From Cyanidioschyzon merolae (taxonomy: Eukaryota): DNA of 64,000 bases. The notes beneath the pieces are model-generated. The model saw only the letters and a list, made by a program, of their open reading frames with translations. It had not been told where the DNA came from and searched no databases. Made by a program: the position numbers and the translations under genes. Below are positions 12,853 to 32,840 of the stretch, piece after piece; positions within the stretch are counted from its first letter, which is position 1; the number at the start of each line of letters is the position of its first letter. Where the stretch lies: assembly GCA_000091205.1 (NCBI GenBank), contig AP006483.2, one strand, 5' to 3'.

Positions 12853-15042
12853 CTACGTTTCTACCTTGAGAGGCTGACCGACAAAGTTGTCTCTCGTCAG
12901 TTCCAGGAGTCTCTTCTCCAGCACGGCATAGCTCTTTATATTGATAGAAGCACTAAAGTCTCGGTTCACGCACTCCAGGCGTTTCTCGTCGCCGCTTGTA
13001 CTCACCAGTGCAGGGAGTCCTCGAACCTGTGCCCTGCTTTCCATTTCCTGCCCTTCCGTCACCGCTCCGTACTTTTGGATATCCCCAGGGCTCCTTTGGC
13101 ACTTTTCCATCTCAACCCTCTGAAGTGTACACCCTAGCTCGTGATGAATGGATGACGTTCCGAACGCATTTATCAGTATCGAAACGAAAAGGTGTGCGCA
13201 GTCCTTGTACGCTCGTGTCGACGGAGCTGGTATACAACCTTTTGTGGACGCCCAGCGTCCTGATCCGTATGCTAATACGAGCATTTTACGCTTGTCCTCC
13301 TTGAGGGCCCTCAACTCATTGAAGAACTTGTCAAATGCACGCTGCTTTCCTCTGTGCAGACGCATATGCAGACGAGCCCATCTGGTCTTGGTGTACTGTT
13401 GCCACAGCGCCTCCCAATGAGCAGTACAAACTTTCATGAATTCCAGAAAAGCCTCAAAGTCCGCTCCTCGGCTAGTCACCTCGCTCAAAGCTTCCAGGTG
13501 CTCTTTCACTCCTCGATTCTATTCCTTAATTTTTTCCTCGCGTTCATTTTTCCGGATTCTCGATCGTATCTTGCTCTCGAGAAATTTAAAAGACACATGT
13601 CTTCTGACGTAAGCTGCCGTCAGTGCCATCTTCCGCACGCTTGGGTGCTGCGATGGTCATGATATTCGTGTCCCCAGGGTCCGCGCCAACGACATTGTCG
13701 TTCTCCTGGACCTCCTGCATCACAGGATCCGCCTCGTATATATGTTCATGTTTCGTCGCGGGCGAAGCCGGGGACGGAACTGGACGATCTACCTTCAAGC
13801 ACTTATAATCTACAAATATGGCTACTCCATCACTTTTGATCATCCCAGGGAATAACTTTTGCTTGCTCACTTTGAGGCGTTCGAAATCGAACATATTCTT
13901 CCAGTACGTCTCCCGGTTTTCACCGGAGAACTCGAAATTCCTTACATCGAACTCTGGACTGATCTCCTTCATGATGCCATGAAGGACGCTCGAGTCGATT
14001 GCCACAATATCTGACTTGACGGTGCACAACGGAGCGACATGGAAGCGCTTACCCATTAGGGCAGCCTCCCGTCTCTCCGACTCTTCATTTTTTCCCCACT
14101 CAGCTTCATCTCTGCCTTGCGTTCGAGTTCTCGGTCCAAAAACACAAAATACCGTAGAATGAGGCGATAGTATCTTTCCGTATCCTTTTTCAACTCTGAT
14201 ATCTTTTCTACTGGATTCGCTAGCCCCAGTACCGCACGACGCTCTTGAATAGACGCACGGATTCCAGAAGCTTCATTCCTTCTCATGTGTGATGTCTTCT
14301 TGTCTACGGATTCGATCCTCTGTTCATTCTCCCTATCGTTCGTGATGCCATCGATGGTGACCCATCTCGCCCTGTGAGGCAGGGCCGCCTATAATGCAAA
14401 CGCGGTGCGTATCATGAAACGTTCGAGGTTCATAGTCATATCGCTCATCAGGTACGTGGGGTACTTCATCGCTCCGTAGGTGCGAATTCGCCAGTCTCCC
14501 CTCTATCGAGTACCGTTGAGGCGGTATTCGGCGTACTTTTTGTGCAGTATACACACTCGCGCATTTTTCGTCGACATATCCCAGGTGCTTACCATCCGGT
14601 AGCGTATAACGGTCTCGTTGAAAAATTCCTCCGGAACCTCGACTTTTTTGGTGTCCGTCACGTTGTTGTATATCTCTTTTACCAAATGCACTAGTACTGG
14701 AAAAGCCTTTACAATACTCAAGGAGTACGACTCGACACGGTTTCCGATGGCCTCTCGCAACTTCTGCTTGTACGGATCCTTGATACATCCAAGAAAACGA
14801 GCTTTCACTACCATCTCGTCGTACTGTCGTCTTTGATGCAGGCATAGACGTCTGGGATCCTGTCTCAGCTTCTTGGACGTGTCTTGTTCCTCTTTGCTCG
14901 GCACTGTTCTCCGTTTTCTTCCGGCAGCCGGTGACACCAGGCCTCCAGGATCCTCTACTTCCTTCTCCACAACTTGCCTTTTTTCTATAATTTTAGATTG
15001 AATGCTCTTTGAACGCCTCTGCTGTAAACAGTGTAAAATCAC
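12853..15042 (-). pseudogene. Fanzor/TnpB-like RNA-guided RuvC endonuclease gene (~730 codons), interrupted by 2 in-frame TAG codons and 3 frameshift points
   Basis: Segments 15042-14503, 14286-14056 (same frame, TAGs at 14503-14505 and 14389-14391), 14056-13586 (frame change at an A6 run near 14075) and 13509-12853. RuvC-I NVVGADPGDTNIMTIAAP (Asp 13679-13681). TS/Zn-ribbon remnant SSIHHELGCTLQRVEMEKCQ. RuvC-III ECVNRDFSASINIKSYAVLEKR (Asp 12958-12960), the hallmark xRDxNAAxNI of TnpB/Fanzor. Confidence 0.6.
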
Positions 15043-16020
15043 TTGAATTCACTAACTTGAGGGTCGAAGCATAAGTGAACTGAAAACTATACTTTGTTAT
15101 GACTTGAATGTAAATACAAGTTGTGCGTTAGACACCAAGTCAACGAATGATCAGGATCGCATATCCCTTCAATGCCGAGATGCTCGTCGCGTCTGATGCC
15201 TCCAAGATGCGGAAATGCGCTAACCGACCGGACTATATAGAGCAAAGAACAGAAACGAACCATTAAATAGCAACGAGATGGCAATTTCTTTCCCCTCTAC
15301 GGTAAACGTTAGAAAATGGCAAACGCTTTCCGTATAATCGAATGTCTACAGGTGGCATGTCCCGCGTGCCGGACGAGTCTGCAGGGCTAATGCTTCGTGC
15401 TCGCCCCAGTGGCAGATGCTTTATTGAGACCTGCGCAACTCGTCCGAAACGCTGCTTATTCTGGGACTAGGAGCGGCTAGCTTGCATCTGGGCATCGCGC
15501 TTGTCTCAGCGGACTCCTCGTGTATTCCTTCGCGCTGCCGCATGCAGTAGATCTGTCTGAACAGATTCCAAGCCCCCAGAATAATAATGAATCGCGACCC
15601 GGTATCGCGCTAGCCACGCCTCGAGCCAACGTCATCACTCGCATGGTAAAAACGATCTATCTCCGTGATGCTTGTGCTCCAGCGGCATAGGCGCTCCTGC
15701 AGGTACAGCACGACAGGCACTCGGCGCTCGATCGAACGCACAAAACGAATTGTATATCCGAAAAGAAGTATAGGTCATGCAACTTGGAGAAAGGATGCAG
15801 CAGCACGATGTACGCCTCCTCGAAAGCCAATATCCATCCAATCCGCAACCTGAAATCCAAGGTCAACGGACACTTTTCAGCCATCGACAGAATTCCCGCT
15901 GCGCTACGCCGCGCGTACCCGCAGGCTGCGCGCAGGCGCCCCGTTTCCAATCGATTCGAGCGTTTTCAAACGCAGTGCTCCGTATAGGCACGAGTTCCAG
16001 CGCCAAAAGTGCGTGATAGA

Positions 16021-16320
16021 ATGCCGGCTCAGCAGATACAGTACTCGGAAAAATATTATGATGATACATACGAGTACCGTCACGTTATTCTGCCCCCAGA
16101 TATTGCGCGTCTTTTGCCGAAGAACAAACTTCTCAGCGAGGCAGAGTGGCGGAGCCTTGGCGTGCAGCAGTCACGGGGCTGGGTTCACTACGCTATCCAT
16201 CGACCAGAGCCCCATATTCTCCTATTTAGACGCCCGTTGAACTACTCGCAGGGTGCTACTACTGCGACGACGGGGCTATCGCAGAACCCTTCTGAATCTG
16301 CCTCACACGCCGTTCCGTGA
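16021..16320 (+). CDS. CKS1: Cyclin-dependent kinase regulatory subunit CKS1/Suc1
   Basis: [73 protein letters not shown] is a near-perfect match to the CKS family across the whole domain. TGA stop. Confidence 0.9.
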
Positions 16321-17230
16321 ACAGCAGAGGATGCGGGGAATCGCTCACCGGCCGCGTCGTTCGGGTGACAGCGGTAGCATTCCCCAGCAAAAAACGTCTT
16401 GATGCAAGCGGTACTAGATGCTTGTATTCGGTTGCGTTGAAGTTACTGCATTCGTTCTTCTGAAACTGTCGCGGAATGAGACCGGGTGTGGTACGACTGG
16501 TCAGGGGTGCTTTGCAGCAAGCCCAGGCCTCGTTTGACGGGAGTATGCGAGCTAGCGCCCCAGCGCGCTCGCCACCTCAGGTACACGCTTTCAGTTCAAT
16601 GCCTCTGGTTGTCTGATTGGCATGGTCCGCTTCGGATTCGGTCTCAAGAGTTGTGACGCTGCGTGCGCCGCCTTGCCCTACTTTCCGCAGCAGCAATGCT
16701 GCGGGCCTGCTCGGCAACCGTGAGAGTTGACGTTGTCTGGGGTTCGCTGAAGACGCACAGGCAACTGATTCCCCTGAAAAGGTTCGAAGTAGCGGTGATT
16801 GCGCTCCAATGTCCAGAGATGCTACGCAAATAGCGTTATAGCGGATCTTTTGGACCAACAGGGACGAAAGCATGGATTGCGCTTACCCGACAGCACCTGG
16901 ACGATGCTTACAACCTGACGAGTGAGGGCCCCGTGTGCTCGTAATGAAAATTTGCACAGTTTAATGTGAACGCAATTTCGTAAAATCGAATGCTCACATC
17001 TAGCATCTGCACCTGAAGCGGTCGAGGAGGCAGCGTCTCTGTCGCGGCGCATCAGACATGGACGCCAATGCAGCAGCCCTGTTACAGGAACGGATTGCAC
17101 ACAGCGGGTGTACGTAAGCTGTTCAAGCAAGTGCCCGTCCCCCGCCTGCAACGCACAGGGCGGGATCGCCTGCTCAATAGTGCGGTATCCGTGCGCCCCA
17201 GCACGATGCTAGCCGCTCTAGAGATGGGTG

Positions 17231-17842
17231 TTACCTGGCGCTTTCCGCCGCTTCATCCGCCTGCTCCGCGAGCTCAACACAGTGTCGAACTCCAGGCTGC
17301 GGCGGGTTCAACGCAGGCTCTGACGACTTCGAGAACGACCAGTCCAGGAACGCCCCAAAAGCACCGAGCACCGCGCAGATACCGACCCCAGTGCCGAGCG
17401 AGCCAGCGCGAACCCCAAACGCGCTGCCCGCGAGACAGCCGCCTATCGCGCTATTCCAGGGGTCTTGTTTGTCACCACGAAGCGCTCGTGCTGAGTATTC
17501 GCCCACGACGAACAGACCGCCAATGCTGGACAGGAAACCAGCGTGCGCAGCTACGGTGCGCCACGGTGACTGCAGAGCCGGGTGCACAGGCGCACCGCCT
17601 TGTGCGCTCGTCGCGGATGTGAAGTCTACAGGCCTGACGCTCCTCGAGAGACCCTGGAAGCTAAACGGGGCACGACGTGGACGCTCGCCCGGTTTCGTGG
17701 CTTGGAACTGCGCGAGCGGGTTCTGCTCGTAGCTGTGCCAGTAGACGATGGAAGCACCCATTGCAGTTCCTAGCAGAGCACCTGTTACCATGCTCTGTAC
17801 CAGCGTAGGCAAGAAGCCTGCATCATCCTGATCCGAGGCCAT
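17231..17842 (-). CDS. Tim17/Tim22/Tim23-family inner-membrane translocase subunit (Tim22-like)
   Basis: MASDQDDAGFLPTLVQSMVTGALLGTAMGASIVY... and ...KQDPWNSAIGGCLAGSAFGVRAGSLGTGVGICAVLGAFGAFLDW show the Gly-zipper membrane segments of the Tim17/22 family. Internal ATG at 17840-17842. TAA stop. Confidence 0.6.
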   Translation of the reverse strand: MASDQDDAGFLPTLVQSMVTGALLGTAMGASIVYWHSYEQNPLAQFQATKPGERPRRAPFSFQGLSRSVRPVDFTSATSAQGGAPVHPALQSPWRTVAAHAGFLSSIGGLFVVGEYSARALRGDKQDPWNSAIGGCLAGSAFGVRAGSLGTGVGICAVLGAFGAFLDWSFSKSSEPALNPPQPGVRHCVELAEQADEAAESAR

Positions 17843-18862
17843 GAACCGATCCCTCGTCTCGGTGGTAAGCGCCGCGGTGCTGCTGCCGCACAACTGCAGC
17901 TGTGCGCGATCTGCTGCCGTCGAATGCCGTCGACGACGCGCTGTGCCTGCGGGAACGCGCAATGCCCTGCAGACGTCATTCGTTTGGGCGTCGTTGCTCC
18001 GGAAATGGGCGTCAAAGGGTACGCTCCTTGCGACGAGCTTGCTTGTTTTGGTCCCTGATACTGTGCTTAGCGTTTCGCGGAACCCGCTTCCGCATACATT
18101 CCCAGAATGGCGACGACGGCGCAGGAACACGGACGAGGTCCGAGCGTCCGAGAATGCCAACAAGCGGTAAGCGTTTCTCCAGCGCTTCAAGTCTCATTGT
18201 TGTACCGCGACGCGACCAAACATACCACGTACTAGAAAAGAGTACGAACGCGCCCTGAGCTGCATATCGTGACCGGAACACCCATGGCGCTGCAGCACCA
18301 CGTTCGCTAGGGGCTTCAGTTTTCCGATCGTATATAGAGATGTTCTCGGGGATGCGTCCAGTTGTCATATCTACGGAGGATCGTGCCAGGCACATATTCA
18401 TCGCTCCGAGCACGCATAATCTGCCTATGCTTCGCTTTATCCGTATGTGACAGCATGCCGATCAAGTGCCCCGTACCCATAAAGCCAATCCCCATCGAAG
18501 CCGTATTTTCATAGCACTCGCATTCGGAACGCTCCCAGGATAGACGCACACTCCAGGTAGGACGTGTACGCTGTACACACGAGTCTATGCATGCACGATT
18601 CACTGATTTCTTCGAGCAAATGTTCATGCATGCATGCATGCACTGCGATGGACACGTCACCCGCAGCCTCGACGAGTGCACGCATCGTGCGCACGCATCG
18701 TCGGGCAACGGCTGTGCGTACAGCGCTCGCTGCGCGCACACGCTCCCTCCGCACTCATTGATTCATTCTCTTTCGTGTTTTTCACGCGACAACGTGCGTG
18801 CGCTACTGTACAGGAACGTGCGCAAGAGCGTTCCGGTACACCCCGGAGCACTTGGTGCACCC

Positions 18863-19702
18863 ATGGGTAACCGACCCTCCACGGAGCGACGGCTGGCGGG
18901 TGATGCAACTCGGCAACCGCCACCGCCGCCACCGCCTGGCAGGTCTGTGAATGCACGCAACGGGCCGACTTCATCGACGTCGACCACGTCAGTACCGTGG
19001 ATGCCGCAACAAGCTCCAGGCCCTGCATCTGAGTCTCCGCCAACCTTTACAATGGCGGCAGGCACGCGACACATATACGCACCGAGTCTGCCGATACGGC
19101 CGCTGACCGAAGTACCCTACTATCCGTACCTGCGGTATCGGGTTGTTGTCGAAGACGAGTACGGTTCGTTGCTCGTAGTGACACGGGAGGGTCTTCGTCG
19201 TCAACGGGATGCCATTCGAGTTGCTTGTGAAACGGAAGCAGATCCTTACGCACTCATCGCGCTGGCCACGTGGCAGCAACGCAAAGCACGCGTGAGTCCA
19301 GTGGAGCTCGACCAGGTTTGTCCGCCGCAGCGCTTCGCATCGCTGGAGGCCAACGACGCCCACACTGTCGAGACTACAGCTGCGCAGACTTGATCTATCT
19401 GTCTGGAGAACTTCGCACCGGAGTCTGCTGTTCGAAAACTGCCCCGATGTGGTCATGTTTTCCATGACGATTGCATTCGCGGTTGGGCATGCCACAAGCG
19501 TGCACAGTGCCCGGTGTGCCGAACCTGGGTTCTTGACGACGCTGACATGTTGCGACGTTCCATGGCCGAGGCAGCGATCAGGGCTGAGCTGCAACATGCA
19601 GCCCTTGTCGAAGAACGAATACGGGAGTACTTGCGTCGTCAGGTTGCTTTATCCAGAGCATGCGGTTGCCGAACCGATACACAGGTTCCGAACGGAACCT
19701 GA
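18863..19702 (+). CDS. RNF11-like RING-H2 E3 ubiquitin ligase (N-myristoylation MGN, Pro-rich/PY motifs, C-terminal RING-H2) with an in-frame TGA at 19391-19393 in place of the first zinc-ligand Cys
   Basis: MGNRPS... N-terminus, PPPPPPP and VPYYPY motifs, then QT-[TGA]-SICLENFAPESAVRKLPRCGHVFHDDCIRGWACHKRAQCPVC. This reads C/U-x2-C-x15-C-x-H-x2-H-x2-C-x11-C-x2-C with the CIxxW hallmark. Upstream and downstream ORFs are in the same frame, separated only by the TGA. Confidence 0.55.
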
Positions 19703-19713
19703 ACAGTCTCGGG

Positions 19714-21703
19714 TCAGAATTTGTTTTCTGAACTGAACACACACTCTCGAAGACGCGCTTTCAGATGCTCGAAGGATTCCCTTTCATCGCGAACCTGTCT
19801 TACGAGTCGGTACCAGCGACTCGGAGCGGAGTCGGGTGATTCCATGGACGCTTGTGATTGCGGATCATTCGGGGACTGGCGATTTTCCGCTGGTAACGCC
19901 CCAGCAAAGCCCCACGAGGCAGCACAGCGCGTTTGCTGCGGCCAAAGCGTTGCAGGAACGAGCATATCCGCTGCCCCAAGCTCCGTTAAATGACGCACAA
20001 CCCAGCCCGCCAGCTGCGTTTGCAAATAGAACGATTCATGCTGCTGGTTTGCGTCTGTCATGGTAGCTTGCAGGGTCGTTACGCACTGCTCTGTGATCGT
20101 TGCGATTTGATAACATGTCTCCGCGTGGCGCGAGTTCGTTCGGACATCGGCCCAGCGTCGAAGCGCACTGGCCCAGCTCGCCCAGCGTGAGGCAATACCC
20201 GCAACGCCACTTGCGGTGAAGCTGGTGTCTGTGGGCGCGTCACGAGTCGATTCCGCAGCCACCGTTGGCACATCCGTCTCACTCAGCTTGAGAAGCACAA
20301 TCGAGAGCGGTAGCATCGGCATTGGCTCAGAAATACAGGGGAATGAGATGCACTGGGTTTGGAACCAGTCCCACAGAATGTCGAAAGAAACGTTTTGTGT
20401 ATGGCGGACAGCAAAACATGCAAAGGCAGATTTGCGGTTCTCGTACACGAGCACTGTATCGTGCAAATGTTTTGTGCACGAAATACCCTCAGGCGTTGCT
20501 CTCTTTGTCGTCATTGCTGACGTTGGTGTTGGTGTTGTCGTCGCCAGTGGCGATAGCATCATGAGCACCACCAGCGGGAATCGTCGTTGGCGCGCAAAAT
20601 CCGTGGACATCTCGGTCGCTTTCGATCGAATCACTTGTTTGAGCGGAGACGCGCACACTGATGGTGCGTCACCGCGCACCACGGCCAGCAGACCAGCCAG
20701 GTTATCGGGACACATGTTCCCTGGCAAAACAAGCTGCAGCTGTTGCCGCTGATGCTGCGCATACGACTCGGAATCATCTTGCTCGTTGCATCGGATACAG
20801 AGGTCCTGACAGAGTCCTTGGACGAGGTCTTTGCACACAATGTCGTGCGGGGGCCACCAGACACCAATCCGCAGGTCTCCTGCTAGGGATGATGCCAGAC
20901 GCAGTACCGCGAAGGTCTCAGGTGGCGGCGCAGTTTGCTGCACGCGCGGGCTTGTTGATGGATGCTCGGGCGCTGCAGCGGCCGCGACCGGCGGTAACGG
21001 CAGCGACACTAAACGAGTCAGCGGACTGGGGCGAAGTACCAGCTCTTGTACGAGGCGATCACGAAGCAGGCGTTGTGTCTGTGCGATGGTGGCTTCTTCA
21101 CGGAGCTTGGAAGCCGCCTGGACCGCACGCTCAACAGCGCTTTGATACGCAGCGATTTGGCGGAGTAGGCGGTTGATTCGTGGGCCAACCTCTGAAGCCG
21201 GTCGACTAGCTGCGCTCAGTTGCGCAGCAGTCTGTTTGAGCTGACCCAAAACATGATGTGTTTGCTCTAGACGTGATTCGAGCTCGGTCAATTGCTCCCA
21301 GAAAGATGATGGTAGTGCGCCACCACGCTCACGCAGATTTTGCGCAAGATATCGTTCTAGCATGAGACCAGCGAGCACCAAGTACTCGATGGCATAGGCG
21401 GGCTCGTGGCGCGCCAGGAGCCACTGCGCATCCAATTGTTCCAGGGCTGCTTCGACTTGCTCATCGTGTGCTGCTTCCATTCGCACCAGAGCAGCGCCCG
21501 TGGGCGGTATGGGCGGCGGCATTGCCGTCACCGGGCGCTCGCGTGGCACGTCACTTGGTGCGAGGGTTTTGTCATCGACAGCCACCGAGGAGTGCTCCAG
21601 CCCAGACTCGCGCCCTGTTGGCGTTGCTCGCGTCTGGTGTGGTGTCATCAGTGCTGGGATCGCTTCAATAGGCGCTCTCTGGACGGCATCCGAGGCCATT
21701 TCT

Positions 21704-21742
<39 letters not shown>

Positions 21743-24516
21743 TCTGTAGCCTGCCTTTGAGCCTTGTTGTCGAACTGAAAAGACGCGGGCGCTGGCTTCG
21801 TAGGCGGCACGATTCCTGTCTGCCCTGTTGACGACCATGGCGAGCGTGCAACCGCACGCTCCGATACCTCCTCCGGCCGTATGGTGCGTTGCGAGGTCGG
21901 TCCCATCACCGCTGCGGCAGCTTGTACTGGAGCGTTCACAGCTGCCGTAGCAACTGCGTTCCATTCGCGCCGCCGGCTGCCTTCAGCTGCAGCTGGCTGT
22001 TGCGCATCCGCGGCATAGGCGTCTGCGGCAGAAACTTTGCCTCCTCCACTGATAGACGCCGTCGGGGTGTTGGTCCCAGTTTGGAGCAGCAGCGGCCGCG
22101 CATCCTGCAACCTCTGCGCTCGTTCCGAGTCGTGCACGTCTCGGTCAACACCAGCAGTACATTCATGCATCTGGGGCGTTCCGACTTGTGAGCCAAATGC
22201 TACCGGCTCTTTTGTTGCTGCTTCCGGAGATGGACGCGGTTCGAGAAGCGATTGCGCGTTGCGGACACATGCAGTTGGCAAGTCCACCGAGATGCCGTTG
22301 CCACTGCCGCTGCCGCTGCTGCTGCTCGCCATCTCGTTACGAGGGCATGCGTCCGACCACTTTTCGCCACCAGCAGCGCCAGGCACGCCGCTTCTCAACT
22401 CCACGCTCATCTGATGCGAATCGCTTCTATCCTGAGAAAACGGCGCCGAGTTCGCCGTTGCAGGCACGGCCACGTGCGGGTCTTTGGAAGCCACTTGTCG
22501 TTCGGAACGCTGTCTGGCGAGCTCAGCAGCTATACGCTCCCGCAAACACTGCTCCCGGGATGCGGGCGGCACCTTGCCTTGGATAATTTCACTGGGTTTG
22601 AGGCCCAGCGCCTTGCGTTCGACACAACGCTGGCCTACGAACCAGTAGAGCGGTCGCAAGGTCGCCTGTGTGGCGTCGGCTGTCTTTGCACGCAGTCTGG
22701 ACACGTGTGGCTCCAGTGTCGCAAGCGCGACGCTGTCACCGTCGACGGTAACGTGCAAGTCGCAGCTCCGCAGGAATGCTGCTGCATCGTCATCATCATC
22801 AAAGGCAAGCAACGACACCAGCGCGCTGAGAGGCCATACTTCCTGACGTGCTGCGGCACGAGCCAACTGCTCCAGCGCCCACAGCCGCATCATACCAAAG
22901 TGCCGATGCATCATACACGCTTGGAGGAAGGAGACTTGCGCGAGCAATCGACCGAAAAACGCCTGAAAATCGCCAGCTTGACGAGCCCGAATCACTTGCA
23001 GTGCAAGCTGAACTTGCTCACTGTGCAGTGTCTCCGGATCGAGTTCGCGCAGGATCTGGATGACGGCGTCGTTGCGGTTCTGGAGTAATAGATAGTACGC
23101 CTCAAACTCGCTTCGATGGGCACTTACAGAACGACCCTGTCGAGCGGCTTCTCGATAGAGGTGACAAAGCGCTAATAAACATTTGTCAAGCTGCTCCATA
23201 TTCTGTTTTGAGGAGAAGACCTCTGGTCCAGTGACGGCCAATCGATACTCGGCGAGGATGTGAAAGCGTACGCACTGCTCATGCACCCAGGCACAGTTGG
23301 TGTCATAGATACCCTGGTACGTGAAATCCTGTCGAATACTGCGTGTTCGATCCCGTAAGAACGCGTAGACTTCGTGAAATGGAACATCTTCACGATCCAC
23401 AATATGCTGCAACAGGTATTCCATTGTCTGACGCAACACGTGCGGTGGGCGCACTTGTTCCGGACGCACGGCTTCTGCACCGGCAGCCGGTCGCGCAAAC
23501 TTTTTCACCATGAGTTGTGGGTTCGGCTCGAGGGTGCGCTCCGGGTTCAAACTCATTTCGAGAACATGCACGTCACGTTGCATCCGACGTTGGTGTTGCT
23601 CCTCCAGGGGACACATCATCAGGCAGGTACCCAGGAGCGCAGGTTGCGCATCCAGCGGCAACGGCAGCGCAGTGGATGCGCTGCTCCCAGCCTGTTGCTG
23701 AGAGTCTCCGTGCTCCCCAGAAGCGAACACGGGCTCCCGATGCTTCGTCCAGGGATCGGTTGTGGAACGAGCGTTTGGTGGCAGGGCGTCGCTTCGGAGG
23801 GTCTCGTCGTGCTGAGCATTCAGGTCTTCATGATGGGCGTCACTGTGTGCAGTGGTTGTTGCGGGCATCGATGCTTGAAAAACACTGATACGCTGCTCTG
23901 GAAACGTACCGACAGTGGAAGCTGTTCGTGATGCGGTTTCCCAAGTCTCGTTCAACGTCCCGGGTAGTGCTTGATATCCACTGGTCTGGGTCGGCGGCGG
24001 GAAAGCGGCAGCTTCTGTGGTCGAACGAGTTATCGACTGCAGGGATGATTTGGCGGCGTTGACAGATGCTCCTGCTGACGTTCCCGTACGCTCTTCGGGA
24101 ATCATCGCTGGTCCGAATGCGTTCTGAGGAGGATACGCAGCTTGCCAGCGCTGCAGGGACGCTCGTGCTGCAGGCGGGATATAGTAACGAAGGCGAAAGT
24201 TCGGTCGGTTTCCCAGCGCAGAGGTGGTCGTGTTGGGAGCCTTACGAAGCGCTGCAGCTGCAGCTCTTTGCGTCTGAAACTCTATGAGCGCGCTCCGTTT
24301 CTGCGGACGCACCTGCACGCGGGTCACTTGTTTGGGTACCACCTGTTCGAAGTATGTGCGAAGGCGCTCTTCATCGCAGTACGCTTCAGGGCACTGGAGC
24401 AGCAGCAGTGTCCGGCCACGGTACCGCACCTGTCCGGTTGGCGAGAGGTAGATCTGACCTTCATCGGGTAGCGCTTCGAGTACTTTGCTTCTTTCGTGGA
24501 ACTCAGCGGTGTCCAT
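19714..24516 (-). CDS. SAC3/GANP-domain protein (TREX-2 / MCM3AP-like mRNA export factor), 1600 aa
   Basis: SAC3/GANP core CPLEEQHQRRMQRDV...NPQLMVKKFARPAAG...VLRQTMEYLLQHIVDRE...VYAFLRDRTRSIRQDFTYQG...CVRFHILAEYRL. RRM-like N-terminus, long low-complexity regions, poly-Ala (CAG/GCT)n tract. TGA stop at 19714-19716. Confidence 0.65.
21705..21740. repeat. (CAG)12 trinucleotide repeat (poly-Ala on the coding minus strand of the SAC3-domain gene)
   Basis: cagcagcagcagcagcagcagcagcagcagcagcag. Confidence 0.8.
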
Positions 24517-27413
24517 AGGCTTGCTGCCGGCAAGTCCTCTCCCGGTACGAACAGCCGCGCTTCAAGCGCAGTGCTCGCTCGTGAGTTGAGAAGCTTCCTC
24601 CTGGATTCAGCTGTAAACCTCAGCGTCGCAGACACGGAAGCAGCAGTATGCTGCAAGTGCGCAAGGCAGTCCAGAGAAGTTGGATGTTCCTCGGTGTCCT
24701 ACGCGGGGCCGTGTGGAGCTGCCCTGGCACTCGACCATTCGCCTCGGGGACCCGGAGCGTCCGACCTACAACTTCCCGTCTTCTAAACTAAACCAGTACG
24801 GTGCGGTACGAAGTGAACGCGTAGCACCAGACGCTCAAAGCACGAACCAGTGGTGGCACGTGGAAGAACGCTTCTTCATGACCGTAACAACGGCAAACGC
24901 AAGTCTGCGTTGCTGGATGCGCTAGCGGTGTTGGTTTCTGGACTTGTCGCCGGTAACGCGCGGTTGCACTAGTGACAACGTCTCTTGAGCGAAATGGCCT
25001 GCTCTGGGACAAGCCAGCTTTGATGCCTGATAGCTAGAAGCTTGCTTCAGCTGTGAGCGTTCCGGGAACGGGCGTCCCAGCTCCGGCTTCTGACCAGCTG
25101 GCCGAGAACTTGCTTCGAAGCGAGCAGGACTCGTCGTCGGCGTTGCATTCGTTATGATCGAAATCAGTCGAGCGAAACAGAATCTACACGAAGGAACCGC
25201 CTTGTATGATACTATCACTCGCGACGTGTTGCTATGGAGCAGACGCTGGTGCACGCTCTAACGAGGCGCTCGTTCGTTTGTTGCGTCTCGAACCAGGGGA
25301 AACGAGAACATTGACTCGTAGACTCGCTAGTCTCCGATAGGGACACCTCACTTCCTGCCAAGTTGCAACATATCGCGCAGCGTATTCTAGCGGCTGCTCG
25401 TGAGCGAGCTCCTTGGCTACTTGTTGCGAACGCACTGAGTGGAAGCGCGTCGAGCCTCGGCGTGTACCTCGTCAAGAACGTTGTTTTGTGATGTTGCTGA
25501 CAAGCTTCACCGGTTTATGAACCGAATTCGCTGCGTGGCACCTGCCCATTGTTGCAACGCCAAAGAGGGAGCACGGGCTGGGGACAACCTTCGAGGAGCA
25601 CGTCCCGCTGCGGGAGTGTTCAGCGTATCTGCTCACCGCCAGGTGCAGATACAGCTGCAGTCGCTTCCTGTTGTCGGTCGCAAGTGACAGAATTTACACC
25701 TGAATGATATCGCGCAGATGATCGCATGATCCTTTTTCTGCCAATACGGTGACATGGGTACTCCACTAGCGTTCTGTAGCATTCCTAGACCCGAGCGTAT
25801 TCCATTCGCGTTCACTGCTTCGATGGTATGGAGCGACTCGTATACGACACATATACGTCACCTATACACATGCTGTGTCGCTACATGTCATCCACACAGT
25901 ACCGCAGAGCGCCCACTGCAGCCGCATTCGGATACGTGTAGGCTGTGGGTGTCGGGCGTTGCCTGGAGGGCGTGAGTTCGCCAGATCGCTCTTGAGCTAG
26001 TCGACTTTGGTATTGGGCATCATCGGATGCTGGAATGGAGCCTTCTGTGGTGACCAGTTCGTTTCTCCTACGTGACCCAAGAAGGCGCTCATCGTTTCGA
26101 ACGGTAAGCGGTCAGAGGAGAAGGCAAAAACTGATACCGATGCACACTCGGGCACCTTGCTCTACGAACTGCGTGGCGGCCTCGATCCATCGAGCAGCTC
26201 AGCGGTGCATCGATCTGCAGCAAGTGCAGCGGATGATACCGGTGCTGCGTATCGAGACCAACGCCTCTAGAGCAGTTCGATAACGGAATCGGGTCGAAAG
26301 CAATCTTTCCAGGAGGCCAGCGCTCAGCTAGTGTGCACGCTCATACTGGAAGCTGTTGGAGTGCTTTTTGGATTCGTCGCGGGCGATAAGCGTTTGCGAA
26401 GCGTGTGCGTCAGAGCAGCAAACAGACCCAGCCGGATAGCGGCAAATACAAGCGATATCTAATGAATGGAGTGCCTTAGGTGCCGGTGCGGTGCGAGAGC
26501 ATTCGCGAGTCTCGTGGAAACAACAGAGGAAGAGCGCAGCTGCAACTTTCGTGGCAACTGCTGCACAGACGGCTGCTTCCGATTCCATGACCCATAACCA
26601 CTGCGATAGGTGATGCATATGAGTTGCTGCAGCCGCCTCAGCGTAAAAGAGTGCCACCTGGTTGCAGCGCGCTTGCGGTGCATGCATCAGTCGTGCTCAA
26701 CGCTGCGCTTCTAGTCCGAGCATCGCGCGTCATCTACAGGCCTGTTCGTTGGACTAGCATCCGCCCCTACCCGCGGGGTATCGATACAGATGGTGCATTG
26801 AACTTTCGTCGTGATCATTCGAACGACGGATCTGATTTCCCTCAATTTCTTCGTGGATGACAAGGCTGCTTTCTATCCGCCGCATTCGCAAGCGCGTCTT
26901 CCTCCCAAACTCTTGACGCAGCGAGTTCGCATTAGCCTTGATCCGCCATTGCAACGCTCGAATATCCGATCCAGAAAGCGGTGTTTTGAATACTCGAGCC
27001 GTGTGTGCTTCCCGAACATTCGAGCTGTTTTCGTCAAGAGCAGCGATCCGGAGAGGTAGCATGGCCCTGGTCAGGACTCCACGGCCCACATCGCGCACGT
27101 GACGTACAACTTTGGTGCACTGACCAGCGCTGTCGTCTTGCGCAAAGCATTCGACGCACCATGCACATCGTCTGCAACTCGCCGCGGCTTGCAGCGAATA
27201 AGAAAGGCACGGTTGCGTCAACCTTACCGACGATGCAGGCATCTACCCAGCGAAGATCGTGCAGCGCATGGTCGCTGCGTGATTGGCTCCCAGGAATGCT
27301 ATGATGGAAGCGTACCAAACTTTTGCGATGCCAGGAGCGCACTGATACCAACGTTGTGACGGATCTCGCCAAATGCAAACTCAACGTTTGCAGCTCCGAC
27401 GTTCGCCTCTGCT

Positions 27414-28052
27414 CTAGGGAATGGTCTCGAACGGAGCAGTGTCGCGATAACATGGTTCAAATGCACGTTCTACGGCGTCTCGAGCTTCTGCTTCACTACA
27501 GTTGCGGTTCATTTTGACGCTCATTTCGGCTCTGCGCTTGATGCAACGACGGAACTGCCCGCCGATGCGAAAATGGCTACGAGCGACTTCACGGAGCCAG
27601 TCGCAATCACCGCTGAGTGCAGCGGCTCGAATCTCACTGCAGGCATGGTGGACGCAGTTGCTCCAGTCCAAATATGCCCTACACTGATCGTAGGCGTGAA
27701 TAAGTTCGTGGACTAGCGTCGTCGATGTCATTGACTGCGACTGCAAATGATTGGCACACAGGATGACGGTGCCATCGTCCTGGAAGCCACCGCCAACAGC
27801 GGCCTCACAGTGGCGACAGCAGATCCGAGAAGACAACTTCTCCGCGGCACCGGGCTCCAAGGACTGCACCCCGGGCGAAGGCGGCGTTCCCGTCTGTTCA
27901 ACGAACACTGGGCACCCGGCCTCGCGGAGCGCTCTCACCATGAACTGCACAGTCGGGTTCGAATGAACTGCTCGTTGCACGAACTTTTCGCATCGCTCGA
28001 GATCGGCCGTATTTCCAACTCCTTGGTCCTCGATTTGCGCTTCAACAACCAT
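27414..28052 (-). CDS. ATP23: Mitochondrial inner membrane protease ATP23 (peptidase M76)
   Basis: ...CEKFVQRAVHSNPTVQFMVRAL...GGGFQDDGTVILCANHL...HELIHAYDQCRAYLDWSNCVHHACSEIRAAALSGDCDW...CYRDTAPFETIP matches the ATP23 family including the HExxH motif. TAG stop at the expected C-terminus. Start may be further upstream (ORF open to 28232). Confidence 0.75.
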   Translation of the reverse strand: MVVEAQIEDQGVGNTADLERCEKFVQRAVHSNPTVQFMVRALREAGCPVFVEQTGTPPSPGVQSLEPGAAEKLSSRICCRHCEAAVGGGFQDDGTVILCANHLQSQSMTSTTLVHELIHAYDQCRAYLDWSNCVHHACSEIRAAALSGDCDWLREVARSHFRIGGQFRRCIKRRAEMSVKMNRNCSEAEARDAVERAFEPCYRDTAPFETIP

Positions 28053-28877
28053 GATCAGGGAGACAAAAAGCTTGTGACAGATTGCTCTGCCAGTGCGCTT
28101 CCTGTTTGGGTCTATGGCACTGCGATTCGCTGCCTGGTCGCAAAAAAGTAAGCAGCGACAACGTCCTTGTTTGAACGTTCTAAGCGGCACTGCACAGTCT
28201 TCCAAGCACCTTGAATAGTCGGCACCGAACACAGCGTCCTGGTAAAGACCTGTTCTGTTTTACGTGCCCTTCTACCGCTAGTCAGAGCCCGTCGACGTGT
28301 CTTCGCAGTGAGCCGGAGTTCAGTTAAAGCTGTTTTCTAGAGCGTATTCCTTGACCTGGGACTCAGACTTGTCCAATATAGTGTAGCAAGCCCTCTTCGC
28401 CGTGCACTTTTTCCGACGACTCGAAAAGCGAATGCCACCGCAACAGCTGCTGCAGTTCGGCGTCGACGACGCTCCCGAGGCGCCCGGCTCGAGTTTCACA
28501 GTGCAGCGTACGCCCTTTGAATAACGACACACTTTCGTGCACCCAGTCTCCACTTGATCGAGCGGGAAGTCGCCCACTCGGCGAAGACTAGACGACAAGC
28601 GCTGCCCGTACAAGTCGCTTCGTGCGCCCAGGTCAATGGAGCGATGCGGTGCGGAGACAGGTTGCAAGAAACTACAACAAATAGGACATAAATGTATTAA
28701 AATGCCCTGTCGTTTGGAAAGACTCGCTGTCCATCGTCGAGGCTCGTTGAAGCGATTTGCGGACGTACTACAGCACTGTAGACAAGTTGCTTTCAGGAGA
28801 CACTCGGTTCGAGAGTTGAAAGCAATCGCCGCGTGCGAGATATGGTGTGAGTCTAGACGAGGCTGCGGACTCTGCTG

Positions 28878-29672
28878 ATGCTGTCCACAAACAATGATCC
28901 GTTTTATCGTTTCAAAGCTAGCGTGGAGCAGCAGTTGACTGCGCTCGAGACAAGCTTACGACAGACGAGTCCCAACGGCTTTGGGCTTGAACTCGCTTCT
29001 CATGATGGCTCGCTATCAGTCGACGGATCTTCCAACTTTGAGGCTAGCAAGGCGAAACTGAAAGAGAATCTGCGAGAGCTTTCCGAAACCGTTCGTGTTG
29101 TTCGAGGCAACCGCGAACGTTTCCCTATAACGGACGCGGAGCTTGCCGAACGAGAGCACGCCATTCATGAACTCTGGCAGCGACTCGACGCTTTGGAGTT
29201 GTCAGGAAAACAACCTGCTGTAGTGGACTCTCTTTTCTCCGCGCGACCTGGGTCGCGCTCGCGTCAGCGAGACACGGAGCCGTTTGCGAGCACCGCGTCG
29301 ACCGGACGACCCCTGGACTACGCAGCACAAAAGGCAGCGCACCGAATTGAGCGCGAAAATGAGGTATTTTTGGATCAAGAGCAAAAAGAGCAGCGAGTTT
29401 TGATCGAACAACAGGATCAGGACTTGGAAGATATGTTGTCTGTCGTGAAGAGGCTCGGCGATATGGGTCTGGCGATCCGAAGTGAGGCTTTGCGGCACGT
29501 TGAACGCATCGATGCAGTCGATTCGAGCATGAGCGCAGTCCAGTCTCGCTTCAGGCAAGTACAGTCCCGCTTGGAGTCGCTTATTCAGGAGACGGGACGG
29601 GAACGTTTATGTTCCTTGCTGGGACTGTTTGCGGTATTCGTTGTTCTGCTATTGTTGGTACTCTATACCTAG
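28878..29672 (+). CDS. Qc-SNARE of the syntaxin-6/Tlg1 family
   Basis: N-terminal helical domain, SNARE motif IEQQDQDLEDMLSVVKRLGDMGLAIRSEALRHVERIDAVDSSMSAVQSRFRQVQSRL, then a C-terminal TM anchor LLGLFAVFVVLLLLVLYT. TAG stop directly after the TM segment. Confidence 0.75.
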   Translation: MLSTNNDPFYRFKASVEQQLTALETSLRQTSPNGFGLELASHDGSLSVDGSSNFEASKAKLKENLRELSETVRVVRGNRERFPITDAELAEREHAIHELWQRLDALELSGKQPAVVDSLFSARPGSRSRQRDTEPFASTASTGRPLDYAAQKAAHRIERENEVFLDQEQKEQRVLIEQQDQDLEDMLSVVKRLGDMGLAIRSEALRHVERIDAVDSSMSAVQSRFRQVQSRLESLIQETGRERLCSLLGLFAVFVVLLLLVLYT

Positions 29673-30273
29673 CAATTGGCAACTGACAAGTTAGGACAAT
29701 GGAAATTGCGTCATGTCCACGATCTTTGGTTCGAAACTTGTCTGGAAGCCTAAGGTCTCGCATAGCGGAAGCGATCGAGACGGCGGCTGGGTGCTCTCAG
29801 GGTATTCGGCACGTCGTAGCATAGGACATGAGCACCATGTTATGCGAGGCGTGAACCACGAGTGCATCAACTGCTGACGTCGGGTTACCGTTGGCCTCGC
29901 AGGACCCCAGCGTTAGCTGCTTTGAGCGATCGCATACGAACCATTCCCAATGGATATCAGGATACATGACTGGAGAGAAGCCATCTGGACACCGAGGAAC
30001 GCTCGTTACCCTCGGTGTCATTAGTAGTTGCCGGCTTGGTGAATAATGCACATGTGTGGGTCCAAAGTCTCCTGGCGCTCTCAGCGAAGTCAGCAAGACT
30101 CCCGCGAACAATAGCACTATGCTTACAATCATGACACGAAAACGCTGCACGGTCAGTCCGTCGACAGCATTTCACAGCACCAGCGTCGAGTGCCAGCTCG
30201 TGCGCCCATGCGTCCAACAGGGCAGCGACAGGGCGAGGCGCTTACTGCGCCAGCCGTCGTCTCCGACGCCACC

Positions 30274-30520
30274 ACTAGTATTCGTAATATTTGCGACACC
30301 AAGCTAGCGCCATAGAGACAACTTCGCAGTGTAATGCGTTGGTCAGGTGCAGCGGTTTCGCACGCCCACTGAAGGCATCGCTGCAGCGGGTTGCAACAAC
30401 TAGTATTTGTAATATTAGCGACACCAAGCTAGCGCCATAGAGACAACTTCACAGTGTAATGCGTTGGTCAGGTGCAGCGGTTGCGCATGCCCACTGAAGG
30501 CATCGCTGCAGCGGGTTGCA
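30274..30520. repeat. Tandem direct duplication, 2 x ~125 bp, ~95% identical
   Basis: actagtattcgtaatatttgcgacaccaagctagcgccatagagacaacttcgcagtgtaatgcgttggtcaggtgcagcggtttcgcacgcccactgaaggcatcgctgcagcgggttgcaac repeated from 30399 with a few substitutions. Confidence 0.7.
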
Positions 30521-32840
30521 GCACGCGCGCGCTAGGATCATGTAAAGTTACCAGCGCTCGATGCAGGTGCCATGTGTTACTTTTTTGAGAGCCCTGGTGT
30601 CCGAGTGCACATACAGATTGTAGAGCGCACATCTGGAACCCTGGTTGACGAACCAGGTTTGCTCCCAGACATGGCCACACCAGCGACCCAGGGAAAACGT
30701 GCATGCGACGCATGCGGACGGCCCGGCAAGAGCAGGTGTCAGCGCAGTTGTAGCTGTACGTCGCGGTACCGAACCGACTTGGTATTTCCATGGTGTCCTG
30801 GACGAGGCATCGACACTTGCGTATCAAACGCTCGAATTCATCATTACAACGATCCTCTGTCATGATTCGATCGTTCTGGGTTCAGGTTGTGAGCAGTGTT
30901 CGCACTTACCAGCCCACGCATCGAGAGCGTCTTGCGAAGACCTCTGCATATATGGAGTGATTCATGGCACAGGCTGCGCCCGTGTCAGATGAGCATGGCG
31001 TACCGAAACGCTCGTTCCGATCATGCCTTGTAATTTCCTACCCAATGTGTCGTTCACATCGATAAACTCGACATTCATGTTGGAGCAAGAACGGTTCATC
31101 GAGTCCAATGGTTTTACAGATTTTTTGGACAGAGCTTCTCGACGCCTTGCCACTACAGTTCCTTATGTTACCGTCATCATGATGATCGGCGACGTCCGTG
31201 AGACACAGTTCGTAAAGTAACCAATAGCTTCGTGTGATTCACGCGTACAAGCCTCCACGCTGCTCTCAGTCTCAAACGTAGCATGTTCGAATCAGGTATT
31301 CTCCATGTTTTCTATTTTTATGTTTCAAAACGACTTGGAGGCGCTGCAATGCGCTGCACTCCATGGATGACAATCAGTGACTCGAAGCTGTCCATTGACA
31401 CCTGCATCATAAGCATCATGGCGAAATGCCACAATGCTACTGAAATCAAATAATCGGTTCCGTTCCAGAGACAGATACTCTTTTCTTGGTGTCCGTGGAC
31501 AAAACGGGAATCGACAGCAGCATGATACCCCTCACGAGAAATATGCTCCAAAGCTCCGCTCTCTTCGGTTTGGACGGAACGACGTCTTGCACTCGGACAC
31601 AAGTCACTGCTGCGATTGCCTCCAATGGTGCGTGCGTCACGGCCTGGCAAGACCAGAGCGTAGATGGATTGAAATCGCCCGACTTCAACTCCAGCTTGGA
31701 TATCTCTTCCAGTCCGCGTGTTTATCATGGACAGCATCGCGTTCCATAAACCTCTACTGAATGGCACAGGGCGTGATTGCACATGCAACCGACAGCGTAC
31801 GCACCGAGGGAATCGTCCAAGAAAATTCCGTTTTCGCTAGGGACGGCAGCGGGCGCGATAACGAAGGAACACGTATCCGGGAGCGCCTCCTGTACCCGTC
31901 GGTGGCATGTATCGAACGAGGAAGCGAGCGTTCACACGCCATTTGGGGCACTCCTCAAAGAACCAGGAGGTGCTGCAGACGTAGCGGAAACACCGCATCA
32001 CAGTCTAGTGTTACTCGTGCAAGGAATACACCTGAACGGTCGATATCGAAATGAAAAAATGGAAAGCGACGCGTAGATCGCAACGTCCACCCGAGCCCCA
32101 AACCCATCGACCAATGCTGGATACAGCGATATCGGGACCAGAATCATCCGACCAACATCTTGTGACTGCTGACAACGAACCTCGATCATAAATCAAAGAC
32201 TGACGTGTCTAAGAACGGAGACAAGGAAAAGGCAAATTCGTAGCAGAATCCCTCAAAGCCTTCTGTTGATGACAACTAGGGGAAACCAAAACATTTGTGC
32301 AAACATCAGAGCTAGCGTCTACAATGCCCAGCTGCTGAACGTCAGCATCGGTATAGATCGTATCGAGGCAGCTCTCAGTGTCCATATCCAACACGCTATT
32401 CGCCCCAGCAATCCACAAAAGAAACGAGTCGTTATCCAACCAAGTCCCGCGGGTGCATCTGCATCATCCGATGCGCGATACGCCCGGGCGCGCTCCATCG
32501 CCAGATGCGGCGATGCCAGATGCGGATTCCGCCAGGCGCGCATCGCCGCCAGCCCCTTGAATCCACACCACAGCAACTCGCAGGTACAGGGATGCTGGAC
32601 GCTTTCTTATCAGAGACGAGCTCTGCTTCCGTGAATGTTGCGTCGTGTCTCTAAGCGACAACAAGAGTTCTGCAACGTTCTGACTCTGAGCTCGTATTAT
32701 CGCACGGTACTGTGACTAGACGACTTGACGGGGTAGCGCAGGCTGCATCCGGTGTGACTGCGTGCTTCTCGTGCTGTGTTCGTGGCTGGTCTGGTCACGA
32801 TTCTAGAACTGACTGACGCTGTGTTTGTGTTGTTACGTGC

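What the first reader, a model, noticed from the sequence alone, without database searches (positions are those of the whole stretch)
18863..19702. RNF11-like RING-H2 gene with TGA exactly at the first zinc-ligand cysteine: selenocysteine candidate, nonsense allele or error
Two ORFs (18587-19393 and 19514-19702, the latter extending upstream to the stop) are in the same frame, separated by a single TGA at 19391-19393. Translating through gives MGN(myristoylation)...PPPPPPP...VPYYPY...QT-[TGA]-SIC-x15-CGH-VF-H-DD-C-IRGW-x7-C-PV-C. That is a complete RING-H2 (C3H2C3) with the CIxxW hallmark, in the same architecture as RNF11 (whose finger begins C-V-I-C). The TGA occupies the C1 position of the C-x2-C pair. 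TGA is a normal stop for eS7, CKS1 and others here, so it is not a sense-codon reassignment. Algal and protist selenoproteomes include Sec-for-Cys substitutions in otherwise ordinary families; a Sec metal ligand in a RING finger would be new. Alternatives are a TGY-to-TGA pseudogenizing mutation or a base error.
Basis: partly seen in the sequence, partly recalled or inferred. Interest (0 to 1): 0.65.

Follow-up and report, generated by a model that had tools for sequence, protein, structure and literature searches.

The report
Premature stop in RING ligase gene
A conserved red-alga ubiquitin-ligase gene is cut short in the Cyanidioschyzon merolae 10D reference by a one-base change (TGC to TGA) that no relative shares, so it is an ordinary nonsense allele or base error, not selenocysteine.

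Summary
The window is C. merolae 10D chromosome 1. An in-frame TGA at 19391-19393 sits where the first zinc-binding cysteine of a complete RING-H2 finger should be. The public annotation (CMA129C, 268 aa) stops there.

The selenocysteine reading is not supported.
- All 29 distinct near-identical (about 99.3-99.6%) environmental contigs have TGC.
- Two sister-lineage orthologues have TGC and TGT, and two distant family members have Cys.
- The A at 19393 is private to the reference record.
- No SECIS was found by Rfam (E<=10) or by my pattern scan.
- The 3' UTR would run antisense into a convergent SAC3/GANP gene that starts 11 nt after the stop.
- TGA is the commonest stop here and ends this gene too.
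- Three published surveys found no selenoprotein in C. merolae.

I could not decide whether the A is a real null allele of the 10D clone or a record error; I put the odds near even. Sato et al. 2020 report 288 SNPs that both resequenced 10D descendants share against the published sequence. The gene is a lineage-restricted, probably N-myristoylated RING-H2 E3 and resembles RNF11 only in layout. Interest is low, apart from curation value.

The parts
18863..19702 (+). Complete gene as it exists in relatives: 279 codons plus the natural TGA stop. In this record it is interrupted at codon 177.
   Evidence: Translation. The identical 279-aa protein with Cys177 is P0012, and longer gene calls are P0001, P0010 and P0011. 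dN/dS against orthologues is 0.03-0.10 for the middle, RING and C-terminal parts.
19391..19393 (+). In-frame TGA at the position of the first zinc-ligand cysteine. The third base A (19393) is private to this record.
   Evidence: All 36 related loci (29 distinct contigs) have C at 19393. L027 has TGC and L028 has TGT.
19391..19522 (+). RING-H2 (C3H2C3) finger, residues 177-220.
   Evidence: Pfam zf-RING_2 at 46.8 bits and zf-RING_11 at 43.4 bits. The best solved relatives are the RLIM, RNF126, EL5 and AMFR RINGs. All ligand residues are invariant across the family.
19112..19390 (+). Middle region, residues 84-176, highly conserved up to about residue 153 (VPYYPYLRYRVVVEDEYGSLLVVTREGLRRQRD...). 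It has no known family and is the part still encoded upstream of the TGA.
   Evidence: No Pfam match. Only three real relatives among 1.84 billion representatives, all with the same architecture. dN/dS 0.03-0.07. The structure model has low confidence here.
18863..18880 (+). MGNRPS N-terminus, which fits the N-myristoylation consensus (Gly2, Ser/Thr6).
   Evidence: MGNR(P/V)(S/T) is kept in P0020 and P0021. The consensus itself is from general knowledge. Modification was not tested.
19538..19660 (+). Long C-terminal helix after the RING (about residues 226-266), conserved.
   Evidence: AlphaFold helix H314-354 of P0001, pLDDT 73-82. Invariant block MAEAAIRAELQHAALVEERIRE.
18587..18862 (+). Upstream extension included in the public annotation CMA129C. 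It is probably 5' UTR, and it contains an (ATGC)4 microsatellite at 18626-18641.
   Evidence: The 268-aa ORF equals CYME_CMA129C / XP_005535105.1. An 8-bp indel in 14 of 24 relatives changes the frame of this stretch.
19714..24516 (-). Convergent SAC3/GANP gene (1600 aa). Its stop lies 11 nt beyond the RING gene's stop, so any 3' UTR of the RING gene is antisense to this coding sequence.
   Evidence: ORF list. Pfam SAC3_GANP on the orthologous products and conserved synteny Tim17 - RING - SAC3.
19977..20070 (+). It is not a SECIS.
   Evidence: MFE -35.5 kcal/mol, z -2.5. The 3' side of the internal loop reads CUGU with no GA. The ATGA is GCTGC/GTTGC in L027 and L028, and part of the apex is a 10-nt insertion. 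No Rfam hit.

Best explanation
This is an ordinary cysteine-type RING-H2 ubiquitin-ligase gene conserved in Cyanidiophyceae. It has 279 codons and a start that fits the N-myristoylation motif. In the C. merolae 10D reference record one base (19393, A where every relative has C) turns the first zinc-ligand codon TGC into TGA.

The TGA is read as a stop. Translation would end after residue 176. The product would be an N-terminal fragment that keeps the MGN start and the conserved middle domain but lacks the RING and the C-terminal helix. In a haploid cell that is a null for ligase activity. Nothing recodes the codon.

What is shown: the base is private to the record, Cys is the ancestral and conserved state, and no SECIS is present.

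What is inferred: the truncated product and the loss of function.

What is undecided: whether the A is in living 10D cells (a private null allele of the clone) or only in the record. My rough split is about 50% record error and about 44% true allele. The stated confidence is for 'plain stop, no recoding'.
For: Identity of the window: the 268-aa ORF is CYME_CMA129C of C. merolae 10D.

Position 19393: C in all 36 related loci, which are 29 distinct contigs 99.3-99.6% identical. The TGA 32-mer is absent from the JGI metagenome contigs, and the N-version finds two contigs, both TGC. Orthologues carry TGC (L027) and TGT (L028, Cyanidiococcus yangmingshanensis). The distant members P0022 and P0023 have Cys.

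10D is a separate lineage: it has other private differences nearby at 15583, 15982, 18180, 18182, 18390 and 20301, plus a 1-nt deletion at 18319.

Selection: strong purifying selection on the part downstream of the TGA, dN/dS 0.05-0.10.

No SECIS.

TGA is the commonest stop in the window and also ends this gene.

Literature: no selenoprotein was found in C. merolae, including by a Sec/Cys-pair search (PMC2375036). PSTK is missing and no SECIS was found (PMC6627142). No selenoprotein genes were detected (PMC7539508). Both resequenced 10D descendants share 288 SNPs and 81 indels against the published sequence, including a confirmed gene-disrupting 1-nt fault in CMO228C (PMC7291098).
Against: No read-level or independent 10D data could be reached, so 'stop' rests on the absence of recoding signals and not on a protein or transcript measurement.

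C. merolae does keep tRNA-Sec, SBP2, EFsec, SecS and SPS2 (PMC2375036). Those authors themselves raised the possibility of unusual SECIS elements that standard tools miss.

Downstream of the TGA the 10D sequence carries no further private change. That fits a very recent lesion or an error, but it would also fit a codon that is still translated.

My own SECIS pattern scan had no positive control.
Confidence: 0.94

Rival explanations
1. Sub-case of the best explanation, not additional probability: the A at 19393 is an uncorrected base error in the published 10D sequence. Living 10D cells have TGC and make the normal 279-aa RING-H2 ligase. CMA129C is then simply mis-annotated.
For: Sato et al. 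2020 (PMC7291098) found 288 SNPs and 81 indels shared by both resequenced 10D descendants against the published sequence, about 1.7e-5 SNPs per base. One is a confirmed gene-disrupting fault in CMO228C. My rough estimate is that about 6 of 288 random SNPs would create false stops in coding sequence. Errors hit conserved genes as readily as any other, whereas real nonsense variants are filtered out of a gene with dN/dS of about 0.05. The only truncated (...AAQT) protein found in the 15-billion-sequence collection is the reference annotation itself.
Against: Private differences of 10D are about 60 times more frequent here (7 SNPs in 6.6 kb) than the published error rate. A private base is therefore real by default. 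No resequencing data for this site could be reached.
Confidence: 0.5
2. Sub-case of the best explanation, not additional probability: the TGA is a genuine nonsense allele of the 10D clone. It arose in the wild lineage or in culture and leaves a RING-less 176-aa fragment. The ligase is dispensable in laboratory culture.
For: 10D carries its own private substitutions throughout this region, including I1406V in the neighbouring SAC3 gene. The lineage is therefore distinct, and one private change being a nonsense is plausible for a single haploid clone. Laboratory lines of 10D accumulate tens to about a hundred SNPs over a decade or more (PMC7291098).
Against: The gene is under strong constraint in all relatives, and the lesion removes the catalytic domain. 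There is no second lesion or sign of decay downstream. No other sequence in any searched collection carries the allele.
Confidence: 0.44
3. Selenocysteine: UGA177 is decoded as Sec with the help of a SECIS, possibly an atypical one. The result would be a RING finger with a selenolate zinc ligand and the first selenoprotein of C. merolae.
For: The in-frame TGA aligns exactly with a conserved Cys. The organism keeps tRNA-Sec, SBP2, EFsec, SecS and SPS2 with no known client protein (PMC2375036). A hairpin with an ATGA lies 290 nt past the stop (z -2.5).
Against: - The TGA is absent from all 29 near-identical contigs and from both orthologues. [quoted passage not shown]
- No Rfam SECIS hit at E<=10, and no ATGA/NTGA..AA..GA pattern within 2.1 kb.
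- The hairpin lacks the 3' GA of the quartet, and its ATGA is not conserved.
- The 3' UTR is antisense to SAC3 coding sequence.
- PSTK is reported missing (PMC6627142).
- The gene's own terminator is also TGA.
Confidence: 0.01
4. The allele is real, and leaky near-cognate read-through of UGA (inserting Trp, Cys or Arg) supplies a biologically meaningful trace of full-length ligase. On this reading the gene is hypomorphic and not null.
For: From general knowledge of yeast and mammalian termination, UGA is the leakiest stop and can be misread by tRNA-Cys among others. The downstream reading frame is intact.
Against: The context is UGA-U, not the leaky UGA-C. No stimulatory structure lies downstream: z is -0.68 for 19388-19480. 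Basal read-through is typically well under 1%, and only part of it would insert Cys.
Confidence: 0.04

Closest known systems
Eukaryotic selenoprotein genes with Cys-containing homologues (Sec/Cys pairs, as used in selenoproteome surveys)
   Same: An in-frame TGA aligned exactly with a conserved, functionally critical cysteine, with conserved flanks.
   Different: There is no SECIS. The TGA is not shared by any orthologue or near-identical strain. The cysteine is a structural zinc ligand and not a redox catalytic residue. The host has no known selenoprotein and reportedly lacks PSTK.
RING-H2 E3 ubiquitin ligases (RLIM/RNF12, RNF126, rice EL5/ATL type, AMFR, RNF165)
   Same: C3H2C3 ligand pattern and spacing, an Ile after the first Cys, and the conserved Trp. 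phmmer E-values of 2.5e-8 to about 1e-6 to solved RING domains.
   Different: The rest of the protein (conserved middle domain, long C-terminal helix) has no counterpart in these families. The family is restricted to a handful of clusters.
RNF11
   Same: The layout: an MGN start that fits the myristoylation motif, a proline-rich stretch, then a RING-H2.
   Different: There is no PPxY motif. The protein has an extra 90-residue conserved domain and a 60-residue C-terminal tail. It is not an orthologue on this evidence.
Known faults in the C. merolae 10D reference, such as the 1-nt deletion in CMO228C/Tic236 (Chen et al. 2018, confirmed by Sato et al. 2020, PMC7291098)
   Same: A single-base fault in the published 10D sequence that truncates or mis-annotates a conserved gene.
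   Different: That case is an indel verified by resequencing. Here the fault is a substitution, and its presence in 10D cells has not been verified either way.

Membership tests
Eukaryotic selenoprotein gene | In-frame UGA at a position occupied by Cys in homologues | tested here: met
   TGA at codon 177 aligns with the invariant Cys of the family.
Eukaryotic selenoprotein gene | SECIS element (AUGA..AA..GA kink-turn hairpin) in the 3' UTR | tested here: not met
   No SECIS family among the Rfam hits at E<=10 over 18400-21500, and none at gathering score in the whole window. My pattern scan found 0 hits on the + strand of 19394-21500. The candidate hairpin lacks the 3' GA. An atypical SECIS cannot be formally excluded.
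Eukaryotic selenoprotein gene | UGA conserved in orthologues or close relatives | tested here: not met
   0 of 29 near-identical contigs, 0 of 2 orthologous loci and 0 of 2 distant family members carry it.
Eukaryotic selenoprotein gene | Host encodes the complete Sec insertion machinery | not tested
   Literature only. tRNA-Sec, SBP2, EFsec, SecS and SPS2 are present (PMC2375036). PSTK was not found (PMC6627142). None of these genes lies in the window.
Eukaryotic selenoprotein gene | Selenium incorporated in the protein (75Se labelling or mass spectrometry) | not testable with these tools
   This needs an experiment.
RING-H2 (C3H2C3) E3 ligase | Eight zinc ligands C-x2-C-x(9-39)-C-x(1-3)-H-x(2-3)-H-x2-C-x(4-48)-C-x2-C | tested here: met
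   Met for the gene as it exists in relatives, and for this record if codon 177 is read as Cys (Pfam zf-RING_2 46.8 bits against a 27.3 cut-off). In the record as written the first ligand is a stop codon, so the encoded product has no RING at all.
RING-H2 (C3H2C3) E3 ligase | Ubiquitin-ligase activity with an E2 | not testable with these tools
   Inferred from the domain only.
RNF11 | PPxY motif that binds WW-domain HECT ligases | tested here: not met
   No PPxY in the sequence. The nearest strings are PPPPPPPG and VPYYPY.
RNF11 | Sequence similarity beyond the RING domain | tested here: not met
   BLASTP aligns only residues 177-219. No named RNF11 protein appears among the 9 database hits, several of which are unnamed.
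RNF11 | N-terminal myristoylation signal | tested here: inconclusive
   The MGNRPS motif fits the consensus and is conserved in Cyanidiales orthologues. Modification itself was not tested.
Unitary pseudogene | A disabling lesion plus signs of relaxed constraint (further lesions, raised dN/dS) | tested here: not met
   There is one lesion only. No other private change lies between 18863 and 19702. The lesion is therefore very recent, or an artefact.

The most novel reading that the evidence does not exclude
The TGA is real in 10D and is decoded as selenocysteine through an atypical SECIS that current models miss. This RING-H2 ligase would then be the first selenoprotein found in C. merolae, with a selenolate zinc ligand, and a first client for the organism's orphan Sec machinery.
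Probability: 0.01. Interest if true: 0.85.

Novelty: new member of a known kind. Interest (0 to 1): 0.1.

Why it matters
The biological importance is small. C. merolae keeps most of the selenocysteine machinery but has no known selenoprotein, so an in-frame TGA on a conserved Cys deserved a check. The check came out negative.

The practical value is curation of a model-organism reference. CMA129C is annotated as a 268-aa hypothetical protein with a false N-terminal extension and no RING. In every relative the gene is a 279-aa RING-H2 E3 with a start that fits the N-myristoylation motif.

If the base is real, the standard laboratory strain is a natural knockout of a strongly conserved, lineage-specific ligase. 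Anyone studying ubiquitination in this alga would want to know that.

Tried and rejected
1. Independent 10D data. Six exact-product look-ups for products that only a 10D-type contig would give (1600, 268, 255, 62, 176 and 54 aa) all returned 'not on record'. These negatives carry little weight. The reference's own 268-aa product was also not found, although the cluster table lists it on one contig.

2. A look-up of the invariant neighbour Tim17 returned only environmental contigs with a full-length RING gene.

3. Metagenome scan for the TGA allele: none. The N-version found two contigs, both TGC.

4. I rejected it.

5. Read-through-stimulating structure after the TGA: none (z -0.68).

6. The structure prediction of the full protein had too low confidence outside the RING and C-terminal helix (mean pLDDT 47.6) to justify a fold search, so the middle domain remains uncharacterised.

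7. RNF11 orthology: rejected.

8. A literature search for CMA129C found nothing. The resequencing paper has no supplementary SNP list held.

9. An intron or RNA editing as an escape: considered and dropped. In all relatives the same stretch is continuous coding sequence with TGC.

Full report
**What is in the sequence.** The region reads as the first-stage reader described. ORF 18587-19393 and ORF 19514-19702 share a frame and are separated by one TGA at 19391-19393. Translating 18863-19702 gives MGNRPSTERR...AAQT*SICLENF...CGHVFHDDCIRGWACHKRAQCPVCR...NGT*. With Cys in place of the stop, Pfam zf-RING_2 scores 46.8 bits (cut-off 27.3, E 3.4e-12), and the match begins at residue 176. The stop therefore occupies the first ligand of a complete C3H2C3 finger: C177-x2-C180-x15-C196-x-H198-x2-H201-x2-C204-x11-C216-x2-C219.

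**Where the window comes from.**
- The 268-aa ORF is identical to CYME_CMA129C (XP_005535105.1) on a 422,616-bp contig of Cyanidioschyzon merolae strain 10D, which I take to be chromosome 1 from the CMA locus-tag prefix.
- The public annotation therefore already ends this protein at the TGA.
- TGA is a standard stop here. It ends 5 of 11 long ORFs in the window, and also CKS, the neighbouring SAC3/GANP gene and the RING gene itself at 19700-19702.

**What relatives have at this codon.**
- A search of 5.8 billion proteins found a cluster of near-identical proteins from JGI metagenomes, ENA and Logan assemblies, all reading ...AAQTCSICLENF....
- I fetched the DNA for 36 loci, which are 29 distinct contigs. 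They are 99.3-99.6% identical to the window over about 4 kb.
- At window position 19393 every one has C (TGC). The window alone has A.
- The exact 32-mer with TGA is absent from the JGI metagenome contig collection.
- Two orthologues from sister lineages have TGC and TGT: L027 at about 81% amino-acid identity over the aligned part, and L028 from Cyanidiococcus yangmingshanensis. Both keep the gene order Tim17 - RING - SAC3/GANP.
- Two more distant family members, found with an exhaustive HMMER search of the middle domain, have ...PTCLIC....
- Cys is therefore the ancestral and universally retained state.
- The part of the gene downstream of the TGA is under strong purifying selection: dN/dS is 0.05-0.10 for the RING plus C-terminus and 0.03-0.07 for the middle domain. 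dS is saturated, so these are rough values.

**Is 10D just a different lineage?** Yes.
- Across 6.6 kb covered by at least 8 relatives, the window has private SNPs at 15583, 15982, 18180, 18182, 18390, 19393 and 20301, and a private 1-nt deletion at 18319.
- Apart from the TGA itself, the one I translated (20301) is a conservative I1406V change in SAC3. 18180, 18182, 18390 and the 18319 deletion lie between the Tim17 and RING genes, and 15583 and 15982 fall outside any ORF of 90 aa or more.
- The TGA is one of about eight private differences.
- Within 18863-19702 it is the only private one. Nothing else in the gene has decayed.

**Test of the selenocysteine reading.**
- Rfam 15 scanned with permissive filters at E<=10 over 18400-21500, both strands, returned only weak microRNA noise and no SECIS family.
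- The whole window at gathering thresholds returned only a borderline tRNA.
- My own ATGA/NTGA..helix..AA..helix..GA scan of the + strand from 19394 to 21500 found nothing. The same loosest setting gives about 0.08 sites per kb across the window. The scan had no positive control.
However, the 3' side of the internal loop reads CUGU and has no GA to form the kink-turn quartet.
- In the alignment with the two orthologous regions, the ATGA corresponds to GCTGC/GTTGC, and part of the apex is a 10-nt insertion.
- The RING gene's stop is only 11 nt from the stop of the convergent 1600-aa SAC3/GANP gene. Any 3' UTR would be antisense to coding sequence.
- Most importantly, a Sec codon that exists in one clone while all its 99.5%-identical relatives have Cys would need a functional SECIS already present behind a Cys gene. 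It also could not explain why the lineage keeps Sec machinery.

**The literature agrees.**
- Lobanov et al. 2007 found SBP2, EFsec, SecS, SPS2 and a tRNA-Sec in C. merolae, but no selenoprotein. They used SECISearch and an explicit search for in-frame TGA/Cys pairs (PMC2375036).
- Liang et al. 2019 report PSTK missing and no selenoproteins or SECIS (PMC6627142).
- Jiang et al. 2020 also detected no selenoprotein genes (PMC7539508).
- I put selenocysteine at about 1%.

**Real allele or record error?** I could not settle this.
- Six look-ups for products that only a 10D-type contig would encode all came back empty. The index also failed to return the reference's own product, so these negatives say little.
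- One paper bears on the question. Sato et al. 2020 resequenced two laboratory descendants of 10D and found 288 SNPs and 81 indels that both share against the published sequence. These include a confirmed gene-disrupting 1-nt fault in CMO228C/Tic236 (PMC7291098). No site list is held.
- That rate, about 1.7e-5 SNPs per base, predicts by my rough estimate about six false stop codons in the reference's coding sequence.
- Genuine private nonsense variants in one haploid clone with about 0.1% private divergence should be of similar number. They are depleted in genes as constrained as this one.
- I therefore put the odds near even: about 50% record error and about 44% true null allele.
- If the allele is real, the predicted product is a 176-residue fragment that keeps the MGN start and the conserved middle domain but has no RING or C-terminal helix. 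Ligase activity would be lost in a haploid cell.
- Basal near-cognate read-through of UGA could at most supply a trace of full-length protein. The context is UGA-U, and there is no stimulatory structure downstream (z -0.68).

**What the gene is.**
- The true start is very probably the MGN at 18863. MGNR(P/V)(S/T) is conserved in the Cyanidiales orthologues and fits the N-myristoylation consensus (the consensus is from general knowledge).
- The annotated upstream extension contains an (ATGC)4 microsatellite. An 8-bp length change there shifts the frame in 14 of 24 relatives.
- After a variable proline-rich stretch comes a middle region of about 90 residues, the first 70 or so highly conserved. 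It has no Pfam match and only three real relatives among 1.84 billion representative proteins, all with the same architecture.
- Next come the RING-H2 and a long conserved helix. The RING and helix have pLDDT 73-82, and the rest of the model is unreliable.
- The RING is closest to the RLIM, RNF126, EL5, AMFR and RNF165 RINGs.
'RNF11-like' describes the layout only.
- On this evidence the gene is a lineage-restricted RING-H2 E3 found in Cyanidiophyceae and in two more distant, unidentified sources.

**Verdict.** The selenocysteine interpretation is not supported. The finding is ordinary, and its value lies in curating a model-organism reference. The decisive check is to look at position 19393 in the public reads or draft assemblies of the two resequenced 10D descendants (DRX207478, DRX207477; BLLC00000000, BLLD00000000).

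Noticed in passing
window 5299-5366 (+): Borderline Rfam tRNA hit (29.6 bits against a gathering score of 29), while ARAGORN finds no tRNA in the window. The sequence has an acceptor stem, a D arm and a CAU anticodon arm, but no canonical T arm follows. It may be one of the intron-containing or permuted tRNA genes described for C. merolae (from memory).
   Followed up: partly
window 18587-18862, microsatellite 18626-18641: The annotated N-terminal extension of CMA129C contains an (ATGC)4 repeat that differs by 8 bp in 14 of 24 related contigs, which shifts the frame. The extension is therefore probably 5' UTR, and the real start is the MGN at 18863.
   Followed up: yes
window 18917-18937: The poly-proline tract varies among relatives: 7 Pro here, PPPLPPP in P0001 and P0014, and 10 Pro in P0018 and P0019.
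   Followed up: no
window 19702-19714; L027 3070-3091: The RING gene and the SAC3/GANP gene converge with only 11 nt between their stop codons. In the L027 orthologue the called genes overlap by 22 nt. The 3' UTRs must therefore overlap the opposite gene's coding sequence.
   Followed up: no
window 18012-18480 (-), private changes at 18180, 18182, 18319, 18390: Four of the 10D-private differences, including a 1-nt deletion, cluster in the intergenic region between Tim17 and the RING gene. Gene callers place two probably spurious ORFs (95 and 61 aa) there in the environmental contigs.
   Followed up: partly
loci L001-L026, L029-L038 against window 14623-32019: About 30 metagenome, ENA and Logan samples hold a C. 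merolae population that is 99.3-99.6% identical to 10D and has its own shared polymorphisms. The Tim17 protein is identical in all of them and is indexed in 95 blocks of the collection. This could serve for population genomics and for checking the reference.
   Followed up: partly
window 19977-20070 (+): A moderately stable hairpin (z -2.5) lies antisense to the SAC3/GANP coding region. It is not a SECIS and is not conserved in the orthologues. It is probably incidental.
   Followed up: yes
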